This document shows positions 33,001 to 48,000 of a stretch of DNA of 64,000 bases, one piece after another. How positions within the stretch are numbered: position 1 is the first letter of the stretch; each line of letters starts with the position of its first letter. The position numbers are program-made. This DNA is from an uncultured bacterium (GTDB taxonomy: Bacteria > Fidelibacterota > Marinisomatia > Marinisomatales > UBA1611). Where the stretch lies: contig CBFIBM010000001.1 of assembly GCA_965660855.1 (NCBI GenBank), forward strand, positions 224,001-288,000, written 5' to 3'.

Positions 33001-36000
33001 AAAGCTTGATAAAGTTCATGTTACGATTCAACTTGTTGATGTAGCTAATTGGGAAGAGTTAGGAAAAACACACACTACTGAAGTATATACCAGAATACCT
33101 TCATTGAATAAAAGCGTTGGTGCATCAGTTATCCAAATGATAGAACCTTTTTTGCCCAAACCTCCAAAAACAAAAATATCTCCATTCCCAATGTATGCTA
33201 AGCCAGAATTACAAGATCAAAGAAATCCTGTGTCAACCCAAGCAGAAAAACTTGCTTCGGGCCTAGACAAACAGATAGCAGAACTAGAAGCTTCAATGGA
33301 TTATTTATTAGGTGCAAGAGAACGAAGAAAAGAAAAACCAAAAGTAGATGTTCCCAGGTTTAAATCAGGTGAATGGACAATGGATTTTGATGTTGATCGT
33401 AAGCTTAAGGACAATCCTGAAAATAATTCTAATACACAAATGCTAAGCAATGTATTAGATCAGTTGTTGACTAATCCTTATGAAGTTGAATTACAACGTC
33501 CAGAATTTGACTATCAGAAGGATGACGAATTGTACATGACAGTTAGGTTTCCTATAATATACAGGTTAAAGGATAAGATCTTAAAAGATATGTTATCTAG
33601 TCTGCCTTATACTGGGCTGCAACAAGATGGATCACTTACTGTTTTCTATTTTGACAGAACAAAGTTTAATTTTCCACAAAATCATGTGGAGTCAATAGCA
33701 AATGGTGATTTCAGAATTATCCCTGTTCTGAGGATTTTTGATGAAAATAGAAATACTTTAATCTTGGTGGCTGATACTCCAGAAAAATACTGGCATTCTA
33801 GGTCAAGCGATAAGGTTTATTACGTACCCCAACATCAATTTTCACCTCTTATTGATTTTACGGTTGGCGGTTGGTCTATTCAAGTTGCTATGGAGACTGT
33901 AGAAATTCAAGCCGTTTATGAATTTATATTACCTGTAAGTGAAATGGAATCCCTCAGTAATATTAGTTTGAAATTCATAAAAGAGAATGATTTAAGAGCT
34001 TTTCTTGATCCAATCCTTTGAAAATATAGTTGTTAAAATAAGGATTTATTACTATTTTCGGGATATATTTATTTATTCTGTAAGTGTAGGATTTTAGATG
34101 AAAATACTTTTGTTAATTTTATTGTTAATGTCAAAAATTCAAGGACAGAAACTAGATGCAATTGACATTAATTTAAGAAACCTTAATGATGTCTTAGAAA
34201 CTGCACAAAGATCTTCTCAAAAAGTATTTGTTGACGATTTTACAGGCCTTTTGTGACCATACTGTCCCTCTGCGAGTTTCGCAATTTCAGAAATGTTAGA
34301 TTTATATCCAGAAACTTTGATTAGTGTCGAGTGGCACAGCTCAGGTTTTACTCCAGGAAATTCAGATTTTGATATACCAGCATATTCTACCAGGGCAGCG
34401 TTGTACAATGTAGGAGGTATTCCTCATACTCAATGGAATGGCGTTGTTTCAACTGTTGGTGGGTATCCAAATGGTAACTGGCAAGCCTTTATTGGAGAAT
34501 TTACAAATACCTATAATAGTATGGTTGGAGAAGAAACTCCATACAATATTGACATAAACGGTTACGCGGGTAATACTGTGAATTACGATGTTACGATTTC
34601 AATGGATTCTGATATGAGTAGCTCAAACCAGAAAGTTGATGTCTTCCTTGCTGAAGATAATATATGGTCTTATTGGAGCGGCGCAAGTTCATATCATAAT
34701 GCAAGATTTGTAGCAAGGGAATGGCTTTCTTCGGAGTATCTGAGTATCAGCAGTGCCGGCCAGAGTGAAACTTTTTCTGGTTCATTTGAATACAATGGAA
34801 ATTGGAATAGTGATAGCCTTTTTTTAATTGCTATTGTTCAAAACTATTCATCAAAACAAATTTATCAAGCCTCAAAAGTTAATATAAATGATATGGATCC
34901 GGATATTGATGATGATGGTATTTTGAATAATACTGATAATTGTATTGAAGATTACAATCCTCAGCAAGAAGATATTGATAACGATCAAATAGGTGATGCT
35001 TGCGATCCATGTAATAATTTAATTTATACTCTAGGCAACCCAAATGGTGATACAAATATCAATGGAGATCCCCTCATTGACATCATGGATGTCTTAACCC
35101 TTGTAGATTATCTTGCATTTGATCAAAATGAAAATATTTGCCAGGAACCAACTCTAAATATAAATCAAGATAATCATGTTAATATCGTTGATGTAATAAA
35201 TCTTGTTCAACTGATTCTTAATGGTGCATAATTTCTTAATAAAACCACTATTAAAATTTGTTTTTTTTAGTTCAGTTTTCTTTTCTTTTGCTCTTGCAAA
35301 AAAAGTTCCTGATTTAAATATTAAACTTATTGATGGATCAAAGACTACAATTCTAGAGCTTGCAGAAGATGGTCCATTATTAATTGATTTTTGGGCAACT
35401 TGGTGTGTTCCATGCAAAAAAGTGATGAAACATTTAAATCAATTTCATCTAAAATATGATGATCAAAATTTTAAGGTTTTAATGATTAATACAGATAGTC
35501 CTAGGTCTTTTGGAAAAGTAAAATCATTTATAAGATCTCAAGATTATAAATTTTATGTAGGGTTAGATCCTAACCAAATTACAGCCAGAAAACTTGATGG
35601 ATTAGTTATGCCTACTCTTATTTTAGTTGATGCAGGTGGGGAAATAACTTGGAGACATCAAGGTTACTCACCAGGTGATGAAAAAGAAATTGAAAATCAG
35701 ATTGAATTATTACTAAGTAAAAATACTAAATGATATCAAAATTATTTAGGCTTAGTAAGCTTATTTTTCTTTTATGTTTTTTAACAGCTCAAGACTTTAG
35801 TTATAACGCCTCTATTAATTCAAGTTTTGGAAATAGTTATGATTTTTATTCTTTTTCAGAAAATAGGATAAACATCAACTTATTTTACAATAACTTTCAA
35901 AGTTGGGTTCAATATGAATATTCAAACCCACCCGACGTAGGTTTTCCAATTAATGATATAAGAAAATTTCGATTTGAATATCAAAATAAAGCTTTAAATA

Positions 36001-45000: not shown

Positions 45001-48000
45001 TAAAACAAAACTTACATGAAAAAATTCATTTTAAAGTTTTTTATTTTATTTTCTATAACATTTCCCTCATTTGTTATATGTCAGGGTCAAATTATACAAG
45101 ATTTTTCCTACCCAATTTGTGCTAATGGTGATGGTGAAACAGTTTTAAATTTTTATGAATCATTCAACGGATCAGTAAACAATTGTGAGTATAAAGTAGT
45201 TCTTGCTACACTTTTCACCTCCTGGTGACCATCCTGTATGACGGAGGCTCCGGTTCTAGAAGAAATATTTAACACCTACAAAGATCAAGGATTAGAAGTT
45301 GTTGCATTTGGAGCCGACTGGTATCCTGATGGACCCTATACTTGTGAAGGGTGGGATCAACAATTTAATCTTTCTTACCCAATACTTGATTTTGAGACAG
45401 GATTAGAAAATTGGTATTGGGAGTCAGCTCCGTATGATTTATACCAGCCCGAGTTAGGTTGGGGGTTACCTTTTAATGTAATAATAAATCATGAGATGGA
45501 AGTTTTATGGGGTGCAGCAGCCAACTTTGAGGGTGATGTAATGGCTGAGGCTATAGGTGTTATTGAATCAGCTCTCCAAGCGTTGAATGAAGAATTTCCC
45601 GATGGTCCAGGGGATGATGATGGAGATGGAATAGCAAATGGTTGTGATCCTTGTCCAGAATCTCATTTACACCATCCTGGAAATTTTGATTTTTCTCAGG
45701 TTTATTCACATTTTGATAATGGTGCAGTCTTTGTACCATCTGTAGATATTTTTGATTTAATACTATTTTCAGATTATATAATGGATGGTGGCTACCTAAC
45801 TGATTGTATCTTAGAGGCGCACGATATTACCGGGGATGGTTATGTCAATCCTTTCGATGTTATAGCATTAGCTCAATTAATTCTTGGAAATGATTGGGGT
45901 TTAAATTAGCCTGATTATTTTCTTCTTATAAATGAAATTATTTTATCATATTTTTCAGAAGAGTATTATTATTTTTGTTTTAATTTATACTTCTACCACT
46001 TCAGAAATGCAAGGTCAGGTAGCTGTAGGTGACACTATAAACCCTTCTCAATTAAGTTTACCAATTTGCGCTAATCAAGAACCCTTTGGCCCTTCAGAGC
46101 AATTTTTTGATATTTCGATTTATAATAACCCAGATCAAGATTCACAATCAAAAGTAATTTTACTTTCTATTTTTACATCATGGTGCGGATTTTGTCAAAC
46201 TGAAGCTACACACTTACAAGATTTACATACTGAATTTGCCGATGATGGATTGTTAGTTGTTTCAGCTGGAGGAGATTGGGGTTTTCCATATGATTGTGAG
46301 GGTTGGTCTAATGAATTTGATTTAAGTTATCCAATATTAGATTTTATGAATCCCTTTAATCCTAATTGGGGAGAAGCGCCATTAATGACCTATTTAGGAG
46401 TAGCTGCAATACCCTTTAATGTAATTATAGATCATAGGAACATAGTCTCAAATATTATAATAGGATATAATGAGGAAATATTGAACCTAGCTATTGAAGA
46501 TGCTCTTGAAGCAATGATTCAAGATAGTGATGGTGATGGAATTAATTCTGAAGCAGATAACTGTCCATCAATATTCAACCCAGGTCAATCTGATTTTGAC
46601 GGTGATGGCATAGGAGATGTCTGCGATGCTTGTGATAATCTTAATATATTTGTTAACGGAAATCTTAATGGTACATTAAATCTTGATCAAGAACCAACCA
46701 TTGATATTCTAGACTTATTGTTACTGGCCGACTTCCTTGAGGGATTACCAGATCAAAATATCTGTCATGAGGCTGCCTCTGATATTAATGAGGATTCTAA
46801 TATAAATTTACTTGATGTATTTTCACTTGCCTATCAAATTACTGGGCAAAATTAAAATAGGATAAAGGCCTTGAGCAAAGTTATACTTTTATCGTTGGTT
46901 ATTTATTATCAAATTTTGAACCTATATAAAAAGGTATCTATTTTGTATAATCAGGTTCTATTTACAAAATTTTAACAAAAATTATTTTAAAAAGATCAGT
47001 TTTGTTAAAAAAAAATTTTAAAAAAATAAATTACCTCAAAGTATTTACAATACTTTTATTGCAATCATTATTATATAGTCAAATTGCAATTGGTGATACT
47101 GTCTTTAATCTGCAATTACCAATATGTGCTAATTCTGATCCTGATATTCACGAACAGCAATATTTTGATATAAATGATTATAATGGTTTTCCCGAAAGTA
47201 CTATCAGCCCAAGGGTAATTCTTCTTGCAATCTTTACTTCATGGTGTGCGTATTGTCAAACTGAAGCGTTCCTTTTAGAAGATTTACATGAGGAGTATAT
47301 TGATGATGGATTATTGGTCCTTTCTGCTGGTGGTGATTGGGGCTTCCCATATGATTGTAGTGGTTGGGCAAATTCATTTAATTTAACTCATCCAATATTA
47401 AATTTTATGACAACTAATGTGGAAAGTTGGGAAGATGCTCAATTGATAAACTATTTGGGAGTTGGTATTGTACCACATGCTGTTGTAATTGATCATCGAA
47501 ATATTCTTTCAAACACCATTGTGGGTTATAATCCTAATGCTTTGAATCAAGCTGTTGAAAGTGCGCTTGAAACAATGGCTCAAGACCTTGATGGTGATGG
47601 AGTTTTATTTGATGATGATAATTGTCCTTCAATTCATAACCCAGAACAAATAGATATTGACAATGATAACCTTGGTGATGAATGTGATTTATGTGATAAT
47701 CTTAATAATTTTGTAATTGGCAATCTAAATGGTACACTAGATCAATTTCAGCAAGCAACCATTGATATTTTTGATTTATTGTTATTAACTGATTTTTTAG
47801 ATAATTCTTACGAGAATAATGTATGCTCTAACGCTGTATCCGATATTAATGGTGATAATTCTATAGATCTAATTGACGTATTTACGCTTGCTTATATTAT
47901 TTCAGAACAAAATTAAAAAAAAATAAATTTTTTGAAAGGAAGTCTGTAATTTCAATCCTATTCAAAGAGTATATGCGCCCGTAGCTCAACTGGATAGAGT

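What a model noticed while it worked through the whole genome (the two positions that open the first line are those of the whole stretch)
34098..47916. Thioredoxin-fold selenoproteins carry dockerin-like or T9SS sorting modules
Three Sec genes in this cluster (258098-259231, 261761-262645, 269016-269909), two tandem Cys paralogs (269932-270855, 271002-271916) and a fourth Sec gene at C1:123926-124759 encode signal-sequence proteins. Each has a UxxC or CxxC redox domain, TSP3 repeats and a C-terminal dockerin-like module. A fifth Sec gene (C1:355608-356828) ends in LTD plus a T9SS type A sorting domain. These known marine selenoprotein families are therefore predicted to be exported and surface-anchored.
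Evidence so far: - In-frame TGA with coding signal on both sides. - Sec machinery is present. - 14 of 15 relatives' ORFs have U and 1 has C at the redox site. - A covarying hairpin starts 8 nt after the UGA: 85.6% of cells paired against 27-45% when slid, with 5 compensatory pairs. - Por_Secre_tail on C1:355608 scores 29.1 bits against a cut-off of 27, and TIGR04183 scores 36.5 against 23. - The tails match the genome's own dockerin HMM at E 1.4e-8 to 5e-5. - 9 of 9 relatives' orthologs have Redoxin plus Por_Secre_tail over the cut-off. - 7 of 13 also match the dockerin-cohesin module HMM.
(Added by a program. Inside this text positions count along the whole contig: contig position 224,001 is position 1 of the stretch shown here. 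"Call 12" and the like, gene names such as g00115 and contig names such as C1 are that model's own, and its searches are not shown. The text may have been shortened before it was handed on; [...] marks where a part breaks off. The agent that wrote the report below was given it as the finding of a first reader that could run no searches.)

Follow-up and report, generated by a model that had tools for sequence, protein, structure and literature searches.

The report
Exported selenoproteins with dockerin tails
A marine Marinimicrobia genome carries a cluster of genuine selenocysteine redox enzymes that are built for export and end in a calcium-binding docking module, and their counterparts in sister genera carry a type IX secretion tag, so these bacteria probably use selenium enzymes in or on the cell envelope.

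Summary
Window 34098-47916 encodes three in-frame-TGA genes (g1 34098-35231, g2 37761-38645, g3 45016-45909) and two tandem Cys paralogs (g4, g5). Each has a signal peptide, a U/CxxC thioredoxin-fold domain and a C-terminal dockerin-like module. All but g3 also have a thrombospondin type-3 repeat. selA, selB, selD and tRNA-Sec are present, and TGA is otherwise an ordinary stop. The hairpin after the UGA covaries. Cys homologs that keep the same amino acids use other codons and lose it.

The families are already catalogued. g1 is NCBIfam NF045500 (Omp28-related selenoprotein, "GOS_C"), and g2/g3 are Redoxin/TlpA-like UxxC selenoproteins. What I found in no paper searched is the sorting architecture. 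27 of 29 order-level relatives of g2 end in a T9SS C-terminal domain, 17 of them as dockerin, cohesin-like domain, then CTD.

The five window genes have no CTD. Export from the cytoplasm is well supported. Surface anchoring of these five forms is not shown, and periplasmic tethering to cohesin lipoproteins is an equal rival. I rate it a new variant of a known kind, of moderate interest.

The parts
34098..35231 (+). g1: Omp28-related selenoprotein (GOS_C family). 377 aa with a signal peptide, U53 in LLUPYC, a TSP3 repeat and a dockerin-like tail.
   Evidence: NF045500 scores 562.6 bits (cut-off 200) over positions 4-377 of 377. Pfam Omp28 scores 27.3 and TSP_3 16.6. RNA-library contigs cover the gene and keep the TGA.
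34254..34256 (+). UGA (Sec) codon of g1
   Evidence: It lies in frame, and the NF045500 match runs across it. Of the 24 listed strain-variant sites in g1, 21 are at third codon positions (my count, table 3).
34271..34283 (+). SECIS-like hairpin of g1 (UGCGA-GUU-UCGCA), starting 14 nt after the UGA
   Evidence: The GCGA-GUU-UCGC core is present in 5 of 5 family members compared (g1 plus 4 paralogs in L041). The closing pair changes U-A / C-G / U.G (fold).
37761..38645 (+). g2: ResA/TlpA/DsbE-like selenoprotein. 294 aa with a signal peptide, U78 in WUPSC..E84, a TSP3 repeat and a dockerin-like tail, and no CTD.
   Evidence: Pfam Redoxin scores 31.0 (cut-off 26.6). The AF2 model has pLDDT 83.8. 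VIA-align gives Z 19.2 to DsbE 3gl3 and 18.6 to ResA 2f9s.
37992..37994 (+). UGA (Sec) codon of g2
   Evidence: It aligns with U in 22 and C in 7 of 29 relatives. An RNA-library contig bridges it (X15 record 8).
38001..38024 (+). SECIS-like hairpin of g2 (alignment A1 columns 19-42)
   Evidence: 86.7% of cells are paired against 27.9-45.0% when slid, and 5 pairs change on both sides. Sec forms average 8.7 of 10 pairs and Cys forms 5.1 of 10.
38286..38408 (+). Thrombospondin type-3 calcium-binding repeat of g2
   Evidence: The family profile A4 matches thrombospondin-2 and COMP type-3 repeats at E 2e-29 and 4e-28. Pfam TSP_3 scores 15.6, below its cut-off of 25.
38409..38642 (+). Dockerin-like tail of g2. 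The equivalent tails are g1 34995-35228, g3 45673-45906, g4 46619-46852 and g5 47680-47913.
   Evidence: hhalign against the genome's 9 Pfam-valid dockerins gives 98.1% probability, E 9.4e-14. The tail profile's best PDB hits are dockerins, best E 2.5e-4. The model has helices at 246-258, 264-268 and 279-291.
45016..45909 (+). g3: ResA/TlpA-like selenoprotein. 297 aa with U71 in WUPSC, a degenerate TSP3 remnant and a dockerin-like tail.
   Evidence: Pfam AhpC-TSA scores 26.2 (cut-off 26), Thioredoxin 23.6 (cut-off 23.5) and Dockerin_1 16.5.
45226..45228 (+). UGA (Sec) codon of g3
   Evidence: It lies in frame at the WUPSC site.
45235..45258 (+). SECIS-like hairpin of g3 (ACGGAGGCUCCGG core)
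   Evidence: It is a row of alignment A1.
45932..46855 (+). g4: Cys paralog (WCGFC) with a TSP3 repeat and a dockerin-like tail
   Evidence: Pfam AhpC-TSA scores 27.8, TSP_3 21.9 and Dockerin_1 17.6. Only 3 of 10 hairpin pairs form.
47002..47916 (+). g5: Cys paralog (WCAYC) with a TSP3 repeat and a dockerin-like tail
   Evidence: Pfam AhpC-TSA scores 21.2, below its cut-off, and TSP_3 16.3. The NF045500 tail region scores 101.8 bits. Only 5 of 10 hairpin pairs form.
35221..35733 (+). Classic TlpA/ResA-like CxxC protein (WCVPC) with a signal peptide
   Evidence: Pfam Redoxin scores 70.9 and AhpC-TSA 65.7.
35730..37682 (+). DUF6029 protein, a putative outer-membrane barrel, paired with the TlpA-like gene
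   Evidence: Pfam DUF6029 scores 87.3. The same gene order occurs in L041 and L042.
38758..42105 (+). Sensor-phosphatase (Reg_prop propellers, Y_Y_Y, SpoIIE/PP2C) that is syntenic with the cluster
   Evidence: Pfam Reg_prop scores 135.6, SpoIIE 91.4 and Y_Y_Y 51.6. It sits at the same position in L041 and L042.
42117..42683 (+). Second TlpA/ResA-like CxxC protein (WCEPC)
   Evidence: Pfam AhpC-TSA scores 85.2 and Redoxin 80.1.
42664..44946 (+). Second DUF6029 protein, with an insert of acidic D-x-[DN]-G-[DN]-G-x-W-[DN] repeats
   Evidence: Pfam DUF6029 scores 75.0. The repeats show in the translation and in the G063 ortholog.
32702..34021 (+). Conserved 439-aa protein of no known family at the head of the cluster. 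It ends at a TGA used as a true stop.
   Evidence: It has no Pfam or NCBIfam family. Its ortholog holds the same position in L041.

Best explanation
The region is a conserved Marinimicrobia gene cluster for extracytoplasmic thiol/selenol redox proteins.

Three genes (g1, g2, g3) are true selenoprotein genes. Their UGA is read as selenocysteine with the help of a short hairpin whose apical loop begins 17-19 nt after the UGA. g4 and g5 are Cys paralogs.

Each protein has four parts:
- A signal-peptidase-I type signal sequence, with Gln right after the hydrophobic core.
- A thioredoxin-fold catalytic domain. g1 is Omp28-related (GOS_C). g2-g5 are ResA/TlpA/DsbE-like, with W-U/C-x-x-C-x-x-E.
- A thrombospondin type-3 calcium-binding repeat (degenerate in g3).
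- A C-terminal dockerin.

Shown by computation: the coding and Sec features, the folds, homology of the tail to dockerins, and the T9SS C-terminal domain on most relatives of g2.

Inferred: the proteins leave the cytoplasm through SecYEG and fold in an oxidising, calcium-rich compartment. The dockerin then tethers them to cohesin-bearing envelope proteins. In sister genera the g2 ortholog is itself carried to the cell surface by the T9SS.

The likely chemistry is reduction of disulfides or of oxidised envelope and substrate proteins, or peroxide removal, with selenocysteine as the attacking residue.

Whether the five CTD-less proteins of this window end up on the cell surface or stay tethered in the periplasm is open. 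I put it at roughly even odds.
For: **Sec decoding**
- The in-frame TGAs sit at the CxxC N-terminal position.
- 22 U against 7 C in 29 relatives.
- selA, selB, selD and tRNA-Sec are present.
- TGA ends 148 of 897 long open frames, so it is a normal stop in this genome.

**Hairpin**
- 86.7% of cells paired against 27.9-45.0% when slid. 0 of 500 shuffles reach the observed pairing or covariation score.
- 23 Sec forms average 8.7 of 10 pairs and 9 Cys forms 5.1 of 10.
- The three Cys forms that keep Glu-Ala-Pro (L030, L032, L036) use other codons and reach only 6 of 10 pairs.
- The g1 family has its own conserved hairpin in 5 of 5 members.

**Family and fold**
- g1 scores 562.6 bits on NF045500.
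- The g2 model has pLDDT 83.8, with Z 19.2 to DsbE and 18.6 to ResA.

**Signs of an extracytoplasmic life**
- N-terminal hydrophobic cores.
- Two further invariant Cys besides the motif, C43 and C118 in g2 numbering.
- TSP3 repeats matching thrombospondin-2 at E 2e-29.

**Tail as a dockerin**.

**T9SS link**
- 27 of 29 relatives carry PF18962 and TIGR04183.
- The syntenic g2 orthologs in G022 and G063 are 511 and 509 aa with a CTD.
- This genome has SprA, two PorU, a PorV-like protein and 78 CTD proteins over the cut-off.

**Possible docking partners**
- Pfam cohesins pass the cut-off in 12 of 16 genomes of the family.
- The domain between dockerin and CTD in the orthologs resembles the cohesin+FN3 pair 2w1n (Foldseek E 4.6e-8).

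**Reductant supply**: a DsbD-type membrane protein is present.

**Presence in RNA libraries**: contigs from four metatranscriptome runs cover g1, and one bridges the UGA of g2.
Against: - No direct evidence of Sec insertion, export, calcium binding or cohesin binding was obtained.
- g1-g5 have no T9SS domain.
- This genome (84% complete) has only one marginal cohesin: 22.2 bits, or 25.1 with its neighbours, against a cut-off of 24.1.
- An HMM of the orthologs' cohesin-like domain finds nothing in this genome.
- Pfam Dockerin_1 and TSP_3 stay below their gathering scores on these proteins.
- The first calcium loop of the tail carries an insertion relative to canonical dockerins (alignments).
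- The RNA-library contigs do not prove transcription. The tool warns that DNA can be present in such libraries.
- One Sec form (L033) reaches only 6 of 10 hairpin pairs.
- The tail part of the g2 model was not tested by fold search.
Confidence: 0.72

Rival explanations
1. Periplasmic tethering. The CTD-less, dockerin-terminal forms (g1-g5) never cross the outer membrane. They dock to periplasm-facing cohesin lipoproteins or stay free, and act like ordinary TlpA/ResA reductases fed by DsbD. Their substrates could be the neighbouring DUF6029 barrel, cytochromes or copper proteins.
For: - g1-g5 have no CTD.
- The g1 family shows PF18962 in 0 of the 120 relatives listed.
- Small cohesin proteins in sister genomes have lipoprotein signal sequences (FVSC|Q.., LLSC|V..).
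- A DsbD-type protein is present.
- The fold is that of periplasmic reductases.
- The cluster also holds two classic TlpA genes.
Against: - The positional orthologs of g2 in sister genera are T9SS cargo, and so are 27 of 29 relatives. The family's chemistry is therefore clearly used outside the outer membrane elsewhere.
- Other dockerin-terminal proteins of this genome are peptidase-like enzymes that would be expected to act on external substrates.
- The acidic residues after the lipobox Cys of the cohesin lipoproteins resemble the Bacteroidota surface-export signal. This is recalled, not tested.
Confidence: 0.4
2. The tail is only a calcium-dependent stabilising or spacer module, a degenerate dockerin with no cohesin partner. 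It says nothing about anchoring.
For: - Pfam Dockerin_1 is below its cut-off.
- The first loop carries an insertion.
- This genome has only one marginal cohesin.
- Dockerin-like modules without cohesins are widespread (Peer et al. 2009, seen only as a reference in PMC8542988).
Against: - The tail is conserved across two unrelated catalytic families (g1 against g2-g5) and across genera.
- In 17 of 29 relatives it sits directly before a cohesin-like domain.
- Cohesins pass the cut-off in 12 of 16 genomes of the family.
Confidence: 0.2
3. The TGAs are plain stops. The genes would then be split, decaying, or read under another genetic code, and no selenoprotein is made.
For: - Gene callers split these genes at the TGA, giving 212-aa and 312-aa fragments.
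- Some public predictions put W at the site.
Against: - A full Sec machinery is present.
- The U/C alternation falls exactly at the redox site.
- The hairpin is kept only in the TGA forms.
- A family-model match runs across the TGA.
- 21 of the 24 listed variant sites in g1 are third codon positions.
- TGA ends 148 of 897 long frames, which argues against code 4 or 25.
Confidence: 0.02

Closest known systems
[quoted passage not shown]
   Same: g1 is a full-length member: 562.6 bits against a cut-off of 200, covering positions 4-377 of 377. It has the UxxC motif. The model's C-terminal third is the same TSP3 plus dockerin tail found on g2-g5, which score 44-113 bits on it.
   Different: Nothing differs in sequence. 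The passages I read of the review (found by term search) give no localisation or function. 'Signal peptide', 'secret' and 'Omp28' occur 0 times in its text.
ResA / TlpA / DsbE (CcmG) extracytoplasmic thiol-disulfide oxidoreductases
   Same: The fold matches: Z 19.2 to 3gl3 and 18.6 to 2f9s, and profile E 6e-15 to ResA 4nmu. The active site lies at the start of helix 1. The spacing CxxC-x-x-E is like ResA's Glu80 (recalled, not aligned here). Both are exported.
   Different: Sec replaces the N-terminal Cys. Two further invariant Cys are present. A C-terminal TSP3 and dockerin (with or without a cohesin-like domain and a T9SS CTD) replaces a membrane or lipid anchor. The whole-protein NCBIfam cut-offs for ResA, TlpA and DsbE are not reached.
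Surface-exposed thioredoxin-family lipoproteins of Gram-positive cocci (Etrx1/2 of S. pneumoniae 4hqz/4evm, SdbA of S. gordonii 5um7)
   Same: They share the fold (Z 16.5-16.9). They also show the idea of a TlpA-like reductase displayed outside the cytoplasmic membrane to repair or reduce surface proteins. Their function is recalled, not tested here.
   Different: Those proteins are Cys enzymes, lipid-anchored in monoderm bacteria. The proteins here are Sec enzymes of a diderm, with dockerin or T9SS sorting.
Cellulosome-like dockerin/cohesin systems with a T9SS-anchored scaffoldin, proposed for Cloacimonadota (PMC8542988, passages read)
   Same: Signal-peptide enzymes with C-terminal dockerins, including C25 gingipain-like peptidases, occur alongside cohesin proteins that carry a T9SS CTD. 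This genome has the same classes.
   Different: The cargo there is hydrolases, and no redox enzyme or selenoprotein is reported. No multi-cohesin scaffoldin was found in this genome.
T9SS type A cargo (TIGR04183 / PF18962)
   Same: 27 of 29 relatives of g2 and the genome's own Sec gene C1:355608 carry the domain over its cut-off.
   Different: g1-g5 of the window lack it, so they are not members.

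Membership tests
Bacterial selenoprotein gene | In-frame UGA that aligns with Cys in homologs | tested here: met
   The redox site holds U in 22 and C in 7 of 29 relatives, and g4 and g5 are Cys paralogs.
Bacterial selenoprotein gene | SECIS hairpin just downstream of the UGA | tested here: met
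   86.7% of cells are paired against 28-45% when slid, with 5 compensatory pairs. Sec forms average 8.7 of 10 pairs and Cys forms 5.1 of 10. The g1 family keeps its own hairpin in 5 of 5 members. The loop starts 17-19 nt after the UGA. The expected 16-37 nt range is recalled.
Bacterial selenoprotein gene | selA, selB, selD and tRNA-Sec in the genome | tested here: met
   selA scores 494.2, selB 303.4 and selD 388.9 bits, all over their cut-offs. aragorn finds tRNA-SeC at C25:5796-5890.
Bacterial selenoprotein gene | Selenocysteine actually present in the protein | not testable with these tools
   This needs mass spectrometry or 75Se labelling.
NF045500 Omp28-related selenoprotein (g1) | Score over the curated cut-off across the full model | tested here: met
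   562.6 bits against 200, covering positions 4-377 of 377.
Redoxin / AhpC-TSA (TlpA-ResA-DsbE type) for g2-g5 | Pfam gathering score reached | tested here: inconclusive
   g2 Redoxin scores 31.0 against 26.6. g3 AhpC-TSA scores 26.2 and g4 27.8 against 26. g5 scores 21.2 against 26, below the cut-off. g5 is 37% identical to g2.
Redoxin / AhpC-TSA (TlpA-ResA-DsbE type) for g2-g5 | Thioredoxin fold with CxxC at the start of helix 1 | tested here: met
   In the g2 model, residues 30-182 have pLDDT mostly above 90, and the helix starts at residue 79, right after U78. Z is 19.2 to DsbE and 18.6 to ResA.
Dockerin (PF00404) | Pfam gathering score of 22.9 | tested here: not met
   g3 scores 16.5 and g4 17.6. 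The genome scan gives 19.8-21.2 for the Sec and Cys tails. g1, g2 and g5 have no row at E<=1.
Dockerin (PF00404) | Homology to accepted dockerins by profile comparison | tested here: met
   hhalign against the genome's 9 dockerins that pass Pfam gives probability 98.1%, E 9.4e-14. The tail profile against PDB returns mostly dockerins among its 24 hits, best E 2.5e-4 over positions 19-77.
Dockerin (PF00404) | Duplicated calcium loop plus helix (F-hand) pair | tested here: inconclusive
   Two main helices at 246-258 and 279-291 with a short linker helix appear in the model. The second loop is canonical (D-x-N-x-D...D). The first has a 3-5 residue insertion. The tail part of the model was not covered by the fold search.
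Dockerin (PF00404) | Binds a cohesin | not testable with these tools
   This needs a binding assay.
T9SS type A cargo | C-terminal sorting domain (PF18962 / TIGR04183) over the cut-off | tested here: not met
   g1-g5 have no hit. The feature is met in 27 of 29 relatives and in C1:355608 (29.1 against 27, and 36.3 against 23).
Thrombospondin type-3 repeat | Pfam TSP_3 gathering score of 25, or clear profile homology | tested here: inconclusive
   Pfam gives 15.6-21.9, below the cut-off, and nothing for g3. The family profile matches thrombospondin-2 at E 2e-29 and COMP at 4e-28, repeat by repeat.

The most novel reading that the evidence does not exclude
Marinimicrobia (SAR406) would assemble a selenium-based redox complex on the outside of the cell.
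- CTD-bearing proteins with a dockerin, a cohesin-like domain and a CTD are placed on the surface by the T9SS.
- The CTD-less, dockerin-terminal selenoproteins (the Omp28-related and TlpA-like forms of this window) join them through cohesin-dockerin contacts.
- They might bind already in the periplasm and ride out with the folded carrier through the T9SS translocon, as a hitchhiker export.

This would make them the first bacterial thiol-oxidoreductase selenoproteins known to work outside the outer membrane. It would also mean that an abundant ocean lineage spends selenium extracellularly.
Probability: 0.2. Interest if true: 0.75.

Novelty: new variant of a known kind. Interest (0 to 1): 0.55.

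Why it matters
Marine Trx-fold selenoproteins have been catalogued since the ocean metagenome surveys, but with no location or function attached. Two reviews searched by term (PMC13188914, PMC9312934) never mention signal peptides or secretion for them.

This analysis shows two things. A whole gene cluster of these proteins is built for the cell envelope. In most relatives of one family the protein carries a type IX secretion tag. Together these give a concrete, testable place of action in a very abundant, uncultured ocean lineage.

It also explains why the architecture is hidden in databases. Gene callers either cut these genes at the UGA or read the UGA as Trp.

If surface display is confirmed, it would bear on three areas:
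- selenium demand in the ocean
- extracellular redox chemistry, such as reducing disulfides in protein substrates or defending against peroxide
- the range of cargo that T9SS and cohesin-dockerin systems carry

Tried and rejected
**Predicted complex.** I folded the orthologs' cohesin-like domain (A5) with the tail alignment (A3). The result was 'no answer', score 0.24 against a mark of 0.32. It counts neither for nor against binding.

**HMM of the orthologs' cohesin-like domain against all ORFs of this genome.** No hit at E<=0.01.

**Sequence profile of that domain against PDB.** Nothing significant (all E>=0.027, chance-level rows). Only the fold search pointed to a cohesin+FN3 pair.

**Fold search of the g2 model (pdb_via_wide).** All rows fall on residues 26-184, so the dockerin part was not tested.

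**Single-sequence RNA folds.** They were unconvincing on their own (z -0.37, -1.36 and +0.77 for g1, g2 and g3). The case for the hairpin rests on the comparative data.

**The search for related loci.** With g2 alone it gave one locus, in a MAG titled only 'bacterium', so I did not map the taxonomic range outside the order. The Marinimicrobia label rests on the names of two homologs.

**RNA-library contigs.** Parts of the stretch without cover (for example 38354-38645) say nothing.

**Considered and rejected.**
- Genetic code 4 or 25: TGA ends 148 of 897 long frames.
- Lipoprotein anchoring of g1-g5: only g3 has a Cys in its signal region (FVIC|Q), and it does not fit the usual lipobox. The lipobox consensus is recalled.
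- A type B/CHU_C sorting domain on the tails: no hit at E<=1.

Full report
**What is there.** Read with TGA as U, window 34098-47916 holds five paralogous genes on the + strand.
- g1, 34098-35231: 377 aa, U53 in LLUPYC.
- g2, 37761-38645: 294 aa, U78 in WUPSC.
- g3, 45016-45909: 297 aa, U71 in WUPSC.
- g4, 45932-46855: WCGFC.
- g5, 47002-47916: WCAYC.

Between them lie two classic TlpA/ResA-like CxxC genes (35221-35733 and 42117-42683). Each is followed by a DUF6029 gene (35730-37682 and 42664-44946). A large sensor-phosphatase gene sits at 38758-42105 (Reg_prop, Y_Y_Y, SpoIIE).

The genome is a 2.09 Mb, 31% GC, 84%-complete assembly. Two homologs of g2 are named Candidatus Marinimicrobia by their sources.

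**Are the TGAs selenocysteine codons?** The evidence says yes.
- selA and selB (adjacent on C16), selD (C19, itself with one in-frame TGA) and a tRNA-Sec (C25) are present.
- TGA ends 148 of 897 long open frames, so it is an ordinary stop and an alternative code is not the explanation. The gene just upstream (32702-34021) ends at a TGA exactly where its ortholog in a sister genome ends.
- I searched 101 genomes of the order with g2, and 56 have a match at E<=1e-20. In the best ORF of each of 29 fetched loci, the site under g2's U is TGA in 22 and Cys in 7. Among the 17 long-form orthologs it is 16 against 1.
- g1 matches NCBIfam NF045500, 'Omp28-related selenoprotein', at 562.6 bits (cut-off 200) across the TGA and over the whole model.
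- In RNA-library contigs of strain variants the TGA of g1 is kept. 21 of the 24 listed variant sites in g1 are third codon positions (my count, table 3).

**The hairpin.** I aligned 24 UGA-containing sequences: g2, g3 and 22 relatives. A hairpin in columns 19-42 has 86.7% of its cells paired, against 27.9-45.0% when the partner is slid by 1-3 columns. Five pairs change on both sides. 0 of 500 shuffles reach the observed pairing or covariation score. RNAalifold finds the same two stems.

A natural control speaks to this.
- 23 Sec forms average 8.7 of 10 pairs and 9 Cys forms average 5.1.
- The three Cys forms that keep the same Glu-Ala-Pro residues (L030, L032, L036) encode them with other synonymous codons and reach only 6 of 10 pairs.
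- One Sec form (L033) also reaches only 6 of 10.

The g1 family has a different conserved hairpin (GCGA-GUU-UCGC) in 5 of 5 members compared. Its closing pair switches between U-A, C-G and U.G at two synonymous positions. Single-sequence folding energies alone were unremarkable.

**The protein parts.**
- *N-terminus.* All five proteins begin with a hydrophobic N-terminal core followed directly by Gln. This is the pattern recalled for signal-peptidase-I substrates of the Bacteroidota relatives.
- *Catalytic domain.* In g2 it is a thioredoxin fold (model pLDDT 83.8, residues 30-182 mostly above 90). It is closest to DsbE (Z 19.2, rmsd 1.9 over 138 residues) and ResA (Z 18.6). The family profile matches ResA 4nmu at E 6e-15.
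- *Invariant residues.* Besides W77 and C81 of the motif, the family alignment keeps E84 and two more Cys (C43, C118) invariant. I read these two Cys as a structural disulfide, which is an inference.
- *TSP3 repeat.* Next comes a thrombospondin type-3 calcium-binding repeat. Pfam TSP_3 stays under its cut-off (15.6-21.9 against 25, and none for g3). The family profile nonetheless matches thrombospondin-2 and COMP repeat by repeat at E 2e-29 and 4e-28.
- *Tail.* The last roughly 60-78 residues are a dockerin relative. Pfam Dockerin_1 is under its cut-off (16.5-21.2 against 22.9). A profile of 18 tails finds mostly dockerins in the PDB, best E 2.5e-4 over the whole domain. It aligns to this genome's nine Pfam-valid dockerins with 98.1% probability. 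The model shows the expected two helices plus a linker helix. The second calcium loop is canonical and the first carries an insertion.

**Sorting modules in relatives.** This is the most informative result.
- *CTD counts.* Of 29 relatives of g2 from the order, 27 carry the T9SS C-terminal domain by both Pfam PF18962 and TIGR04183 at E<=0.001. The other two run into an FG-GAP propeller and off the fetched locus.
- *Architectures.* Seventeen have signal peptide, Trx(U), TSP3, dockerin, a roughly 120-residue beta domain, then the CTD. Ten have the Trx domain followed directly by the CTD.
- *The extra domains.* A model of one long form (pLDDT 75.2) has the extra beta domain at pLDDT above 90. Its best Foldseek hit is a cohesin+FN3 double module (2w1n, E 4.6e-8), ahead of the ResA/DsbE hits for the N-terminal domain.
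- *Public protein databases.* In the public protein collection the same picture shows. About half of the 120 listed homologs of g2 (I count 54) carry PF18962. The 29 closest (66-98% identical) are 212-234-aa post-UGA fragments that end at the dockerin like g2.
- *Trp at the Sec site.* All 9 full-length public predictions that I fetched have W at the Sec site, which is gene calling with TGA read as Trp.

**Synteny.**
- In a sister genus (G022) the same cluster occurs. It runs: the 439-aa protein, an Omp28-type Sec protein, TlpA, DUF6029, three more Omp28-type Sec proteins, the TlpA-type Sec protein, the sensor-phosphatase, then TlpA. There the g2 position holds a 511-aa protein with dockerin, cohesin-like domain and CTD. 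All four Omp28-type proteins end at the dockerin.
- In G063 the g2 position again holds a CTD form (509 aa). The positions of g3-g5 hold dockerin-terminal proteins that are Sec forms (WUPYC, WUPFC), where this genome has Cys.
- Dockerin-terminal and CTD-bearing forms therefore coexist in sister genomes. In this genome all six cluster-type genes (the sixth is C1:123926) end at the dockerin.
- The g1 family shows no PF18962 in any of the 120 relatives listed.

**What this genome offers for export and docking.**
- It has a T9SS: SprA in two contig pieces over the cut-off, two PorU at 595.8 and 559.2 bits, and a PorV-like protein below the cut-off. 78 CTD matches pass the cut-off. These include one Sec gene outside the window, C1:355608, with a UxxC domain, LTD 46.8 and Por_Secre_tail 29.1 against 27.
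- Nine proteins have Pfam-valid dockerins. Several are peptidase- or hydrolase-like and end at the dockerin. Others continue into a CTD.
- Only one marginal cohesin was found, in a protein with dockerin, cohesin and CTD at C2:65734-69576. An HMM of the orthologs' cohesin-like domain finds nothing here.
- In the wider family, Pfam cohesins pass the cut-off in 12 of 16 genomes. Two of the small cohesin proteins I read have lipoprotein signal sequences.
- A DsbD-type membrane protein is present, so periplasmic reducing power is available.

**How it most likely works.**
- *Shown by computation:* true Sec genes; an extracytoplasmic design (signal peptide, extra conserved Cys, calcium-binding modules); a dockerin-type tail; T9SS tags on most relatives of g2.
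- *Inferred:* export through SecYEG, calcium-dependent docking to cohesin-bearing envelope proteins, and a reductase or peroxidase role with Sec as the attacking residue.
- *Open:* whether g1-g5 reach the cell surface. A dockerin gives no known route across the outer membrane. Periplasmic tethering to cohesin lipoproteins fits the data as well as surface display does. Loss of the N-terminal lipid anchor in the Omp28-type selenoprotein (its parent family is named an outer-membrane lipoprotein family), together with the gain of a dockerin, fits the idea that the dockerin is the anchor. It does not say on which face.

**What is known.** A 2026 review's table lists NF045500 as 'Hypothetical protein GOS_C', and lists UxxC Redoxin and thiol-disulfide-isomerase-like selenoproteins from ocean metagenomes (PMC13188914, passages found by term search). 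The families are therefore known.
- That review and a 2022 one (PMC9312934) contain no occurrence of 'signal peptide', 'secret' or 'Omp28'.
- Full-text searches gave no relevant paper. 'Selenoprotein' with 'type IX secretion' returned 1 unrelated paper. 'Selenoprotein' with 'dockerin' returned 2 unrelated papers. 'Marinimicrobia' with 'dockerin' returned 0. 'Marinimicrobia' with 'selenocysteine' returned 5 papers holding both terms (4 listed), which I judged by title and abstract only.
- A dockerin/cohesin system with a T9SS-anchored scaffoldin has been proposed for Cloacimonadota hydrolases (PMC8542988, passages read).
- Supplements of these papers were not examined and could hold architecture tables.

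**Verdict.** Known selenoprotein families here carry known sorting modules in a combination I found described in no paper searched. I rate it a new variant of a known kind, with interest 0.55.

Noticed in passing
window 49414-62154 (+): A single open frame of 4247 aa lies directly downstream of the cluster. It ends in a T9SS C-terminal domain (TIGR04183 38.6 bits at C1:285888-286139, which is window 61888-62139; ORF). It is a giant T9SS cargo protein that I did not characterise.
   Followed up: no
window 42664-44946 (+), about residues 440-640: The second DUF6029 protein carries an insert of many acidic D-x-[DN]-G-[DN]-G-x-W-[DN] repeats that look like calcium-binding loops. The G063 ortholog has them too. 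Both DUF6029 proteins have a conserved C-x-N-G-I-C-R motif near the C-terminus. Each follows a TlpA-like gene in three genomes, which suggests a TlpA-substrate pair.
   Followed up: partly
window 48567-49403 (+): This ORF has a long run of acidic D/E/Y-rich repeats after a signal-like N-terminus and a Gly-rich C-terminal half. It matches no NCBIfam family at E<=1e-10.
   Followed up: no
window 32702-34021 (+): A 439-aa protein with no Pfam or NCBIfam family heads the cluster. It is syntenic in G022.
   Followed up: partly
G000:C19:7427-8353: The selD gene of this genome has an in-frame TGA, so SelD is probably a selenoprotein too.
   Followed up: no
proteins P0037-P0039, P0044, P0062, P0063, P0065, P0066, P0074: Public gene predictions of this family have Trp at the Sec position, and some run on past the true TGA stop. 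The contigs were evidently called with a TGA=Trp code. The other predictions are cut at the UGA. Either way the architecture is hidden in databases.
   Followed up: partly
L045 994-1701 (-), L046 1483-2025 (-), L044 706-1965 (+): Sister genomes encode small cohesin proteins (180-235 aa) with lipoprotein signal sequences and acidic residues after the Cys. They also encode a 419-aa protein that appears, by eye on its sequence, to carry a dockerin ahead of its Pfam cohesin match and a CTD-like C-terminus.
   Followed up: partly
G000:C3:12937-15186, C8:74673-78305, C11:56306-57943, C3:71982-73433, C14:2198-3361, C3:88008-89525: Several signal-peptide proteins of this genome also end in a dockerin without a CTD. 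By eye they include peptidase-like and esterase-like sequences. Only the tail was tested.
   Followed up: partly
L029, L031 (G023, G085): Two relatives fuse the Sec TlpA-like domain to a long FG-GAP/VCBS beta-propeller instead of TSP3 and dockerin. The fetched loci end before the C-terminus.
   Followed up: no
runs X15-X18: The metatranscriptome runs that hold near-identical contigs are labelled 'freshwater metagenome', while the DNA holders are marine. I did not pursue this.
   Followed up: no
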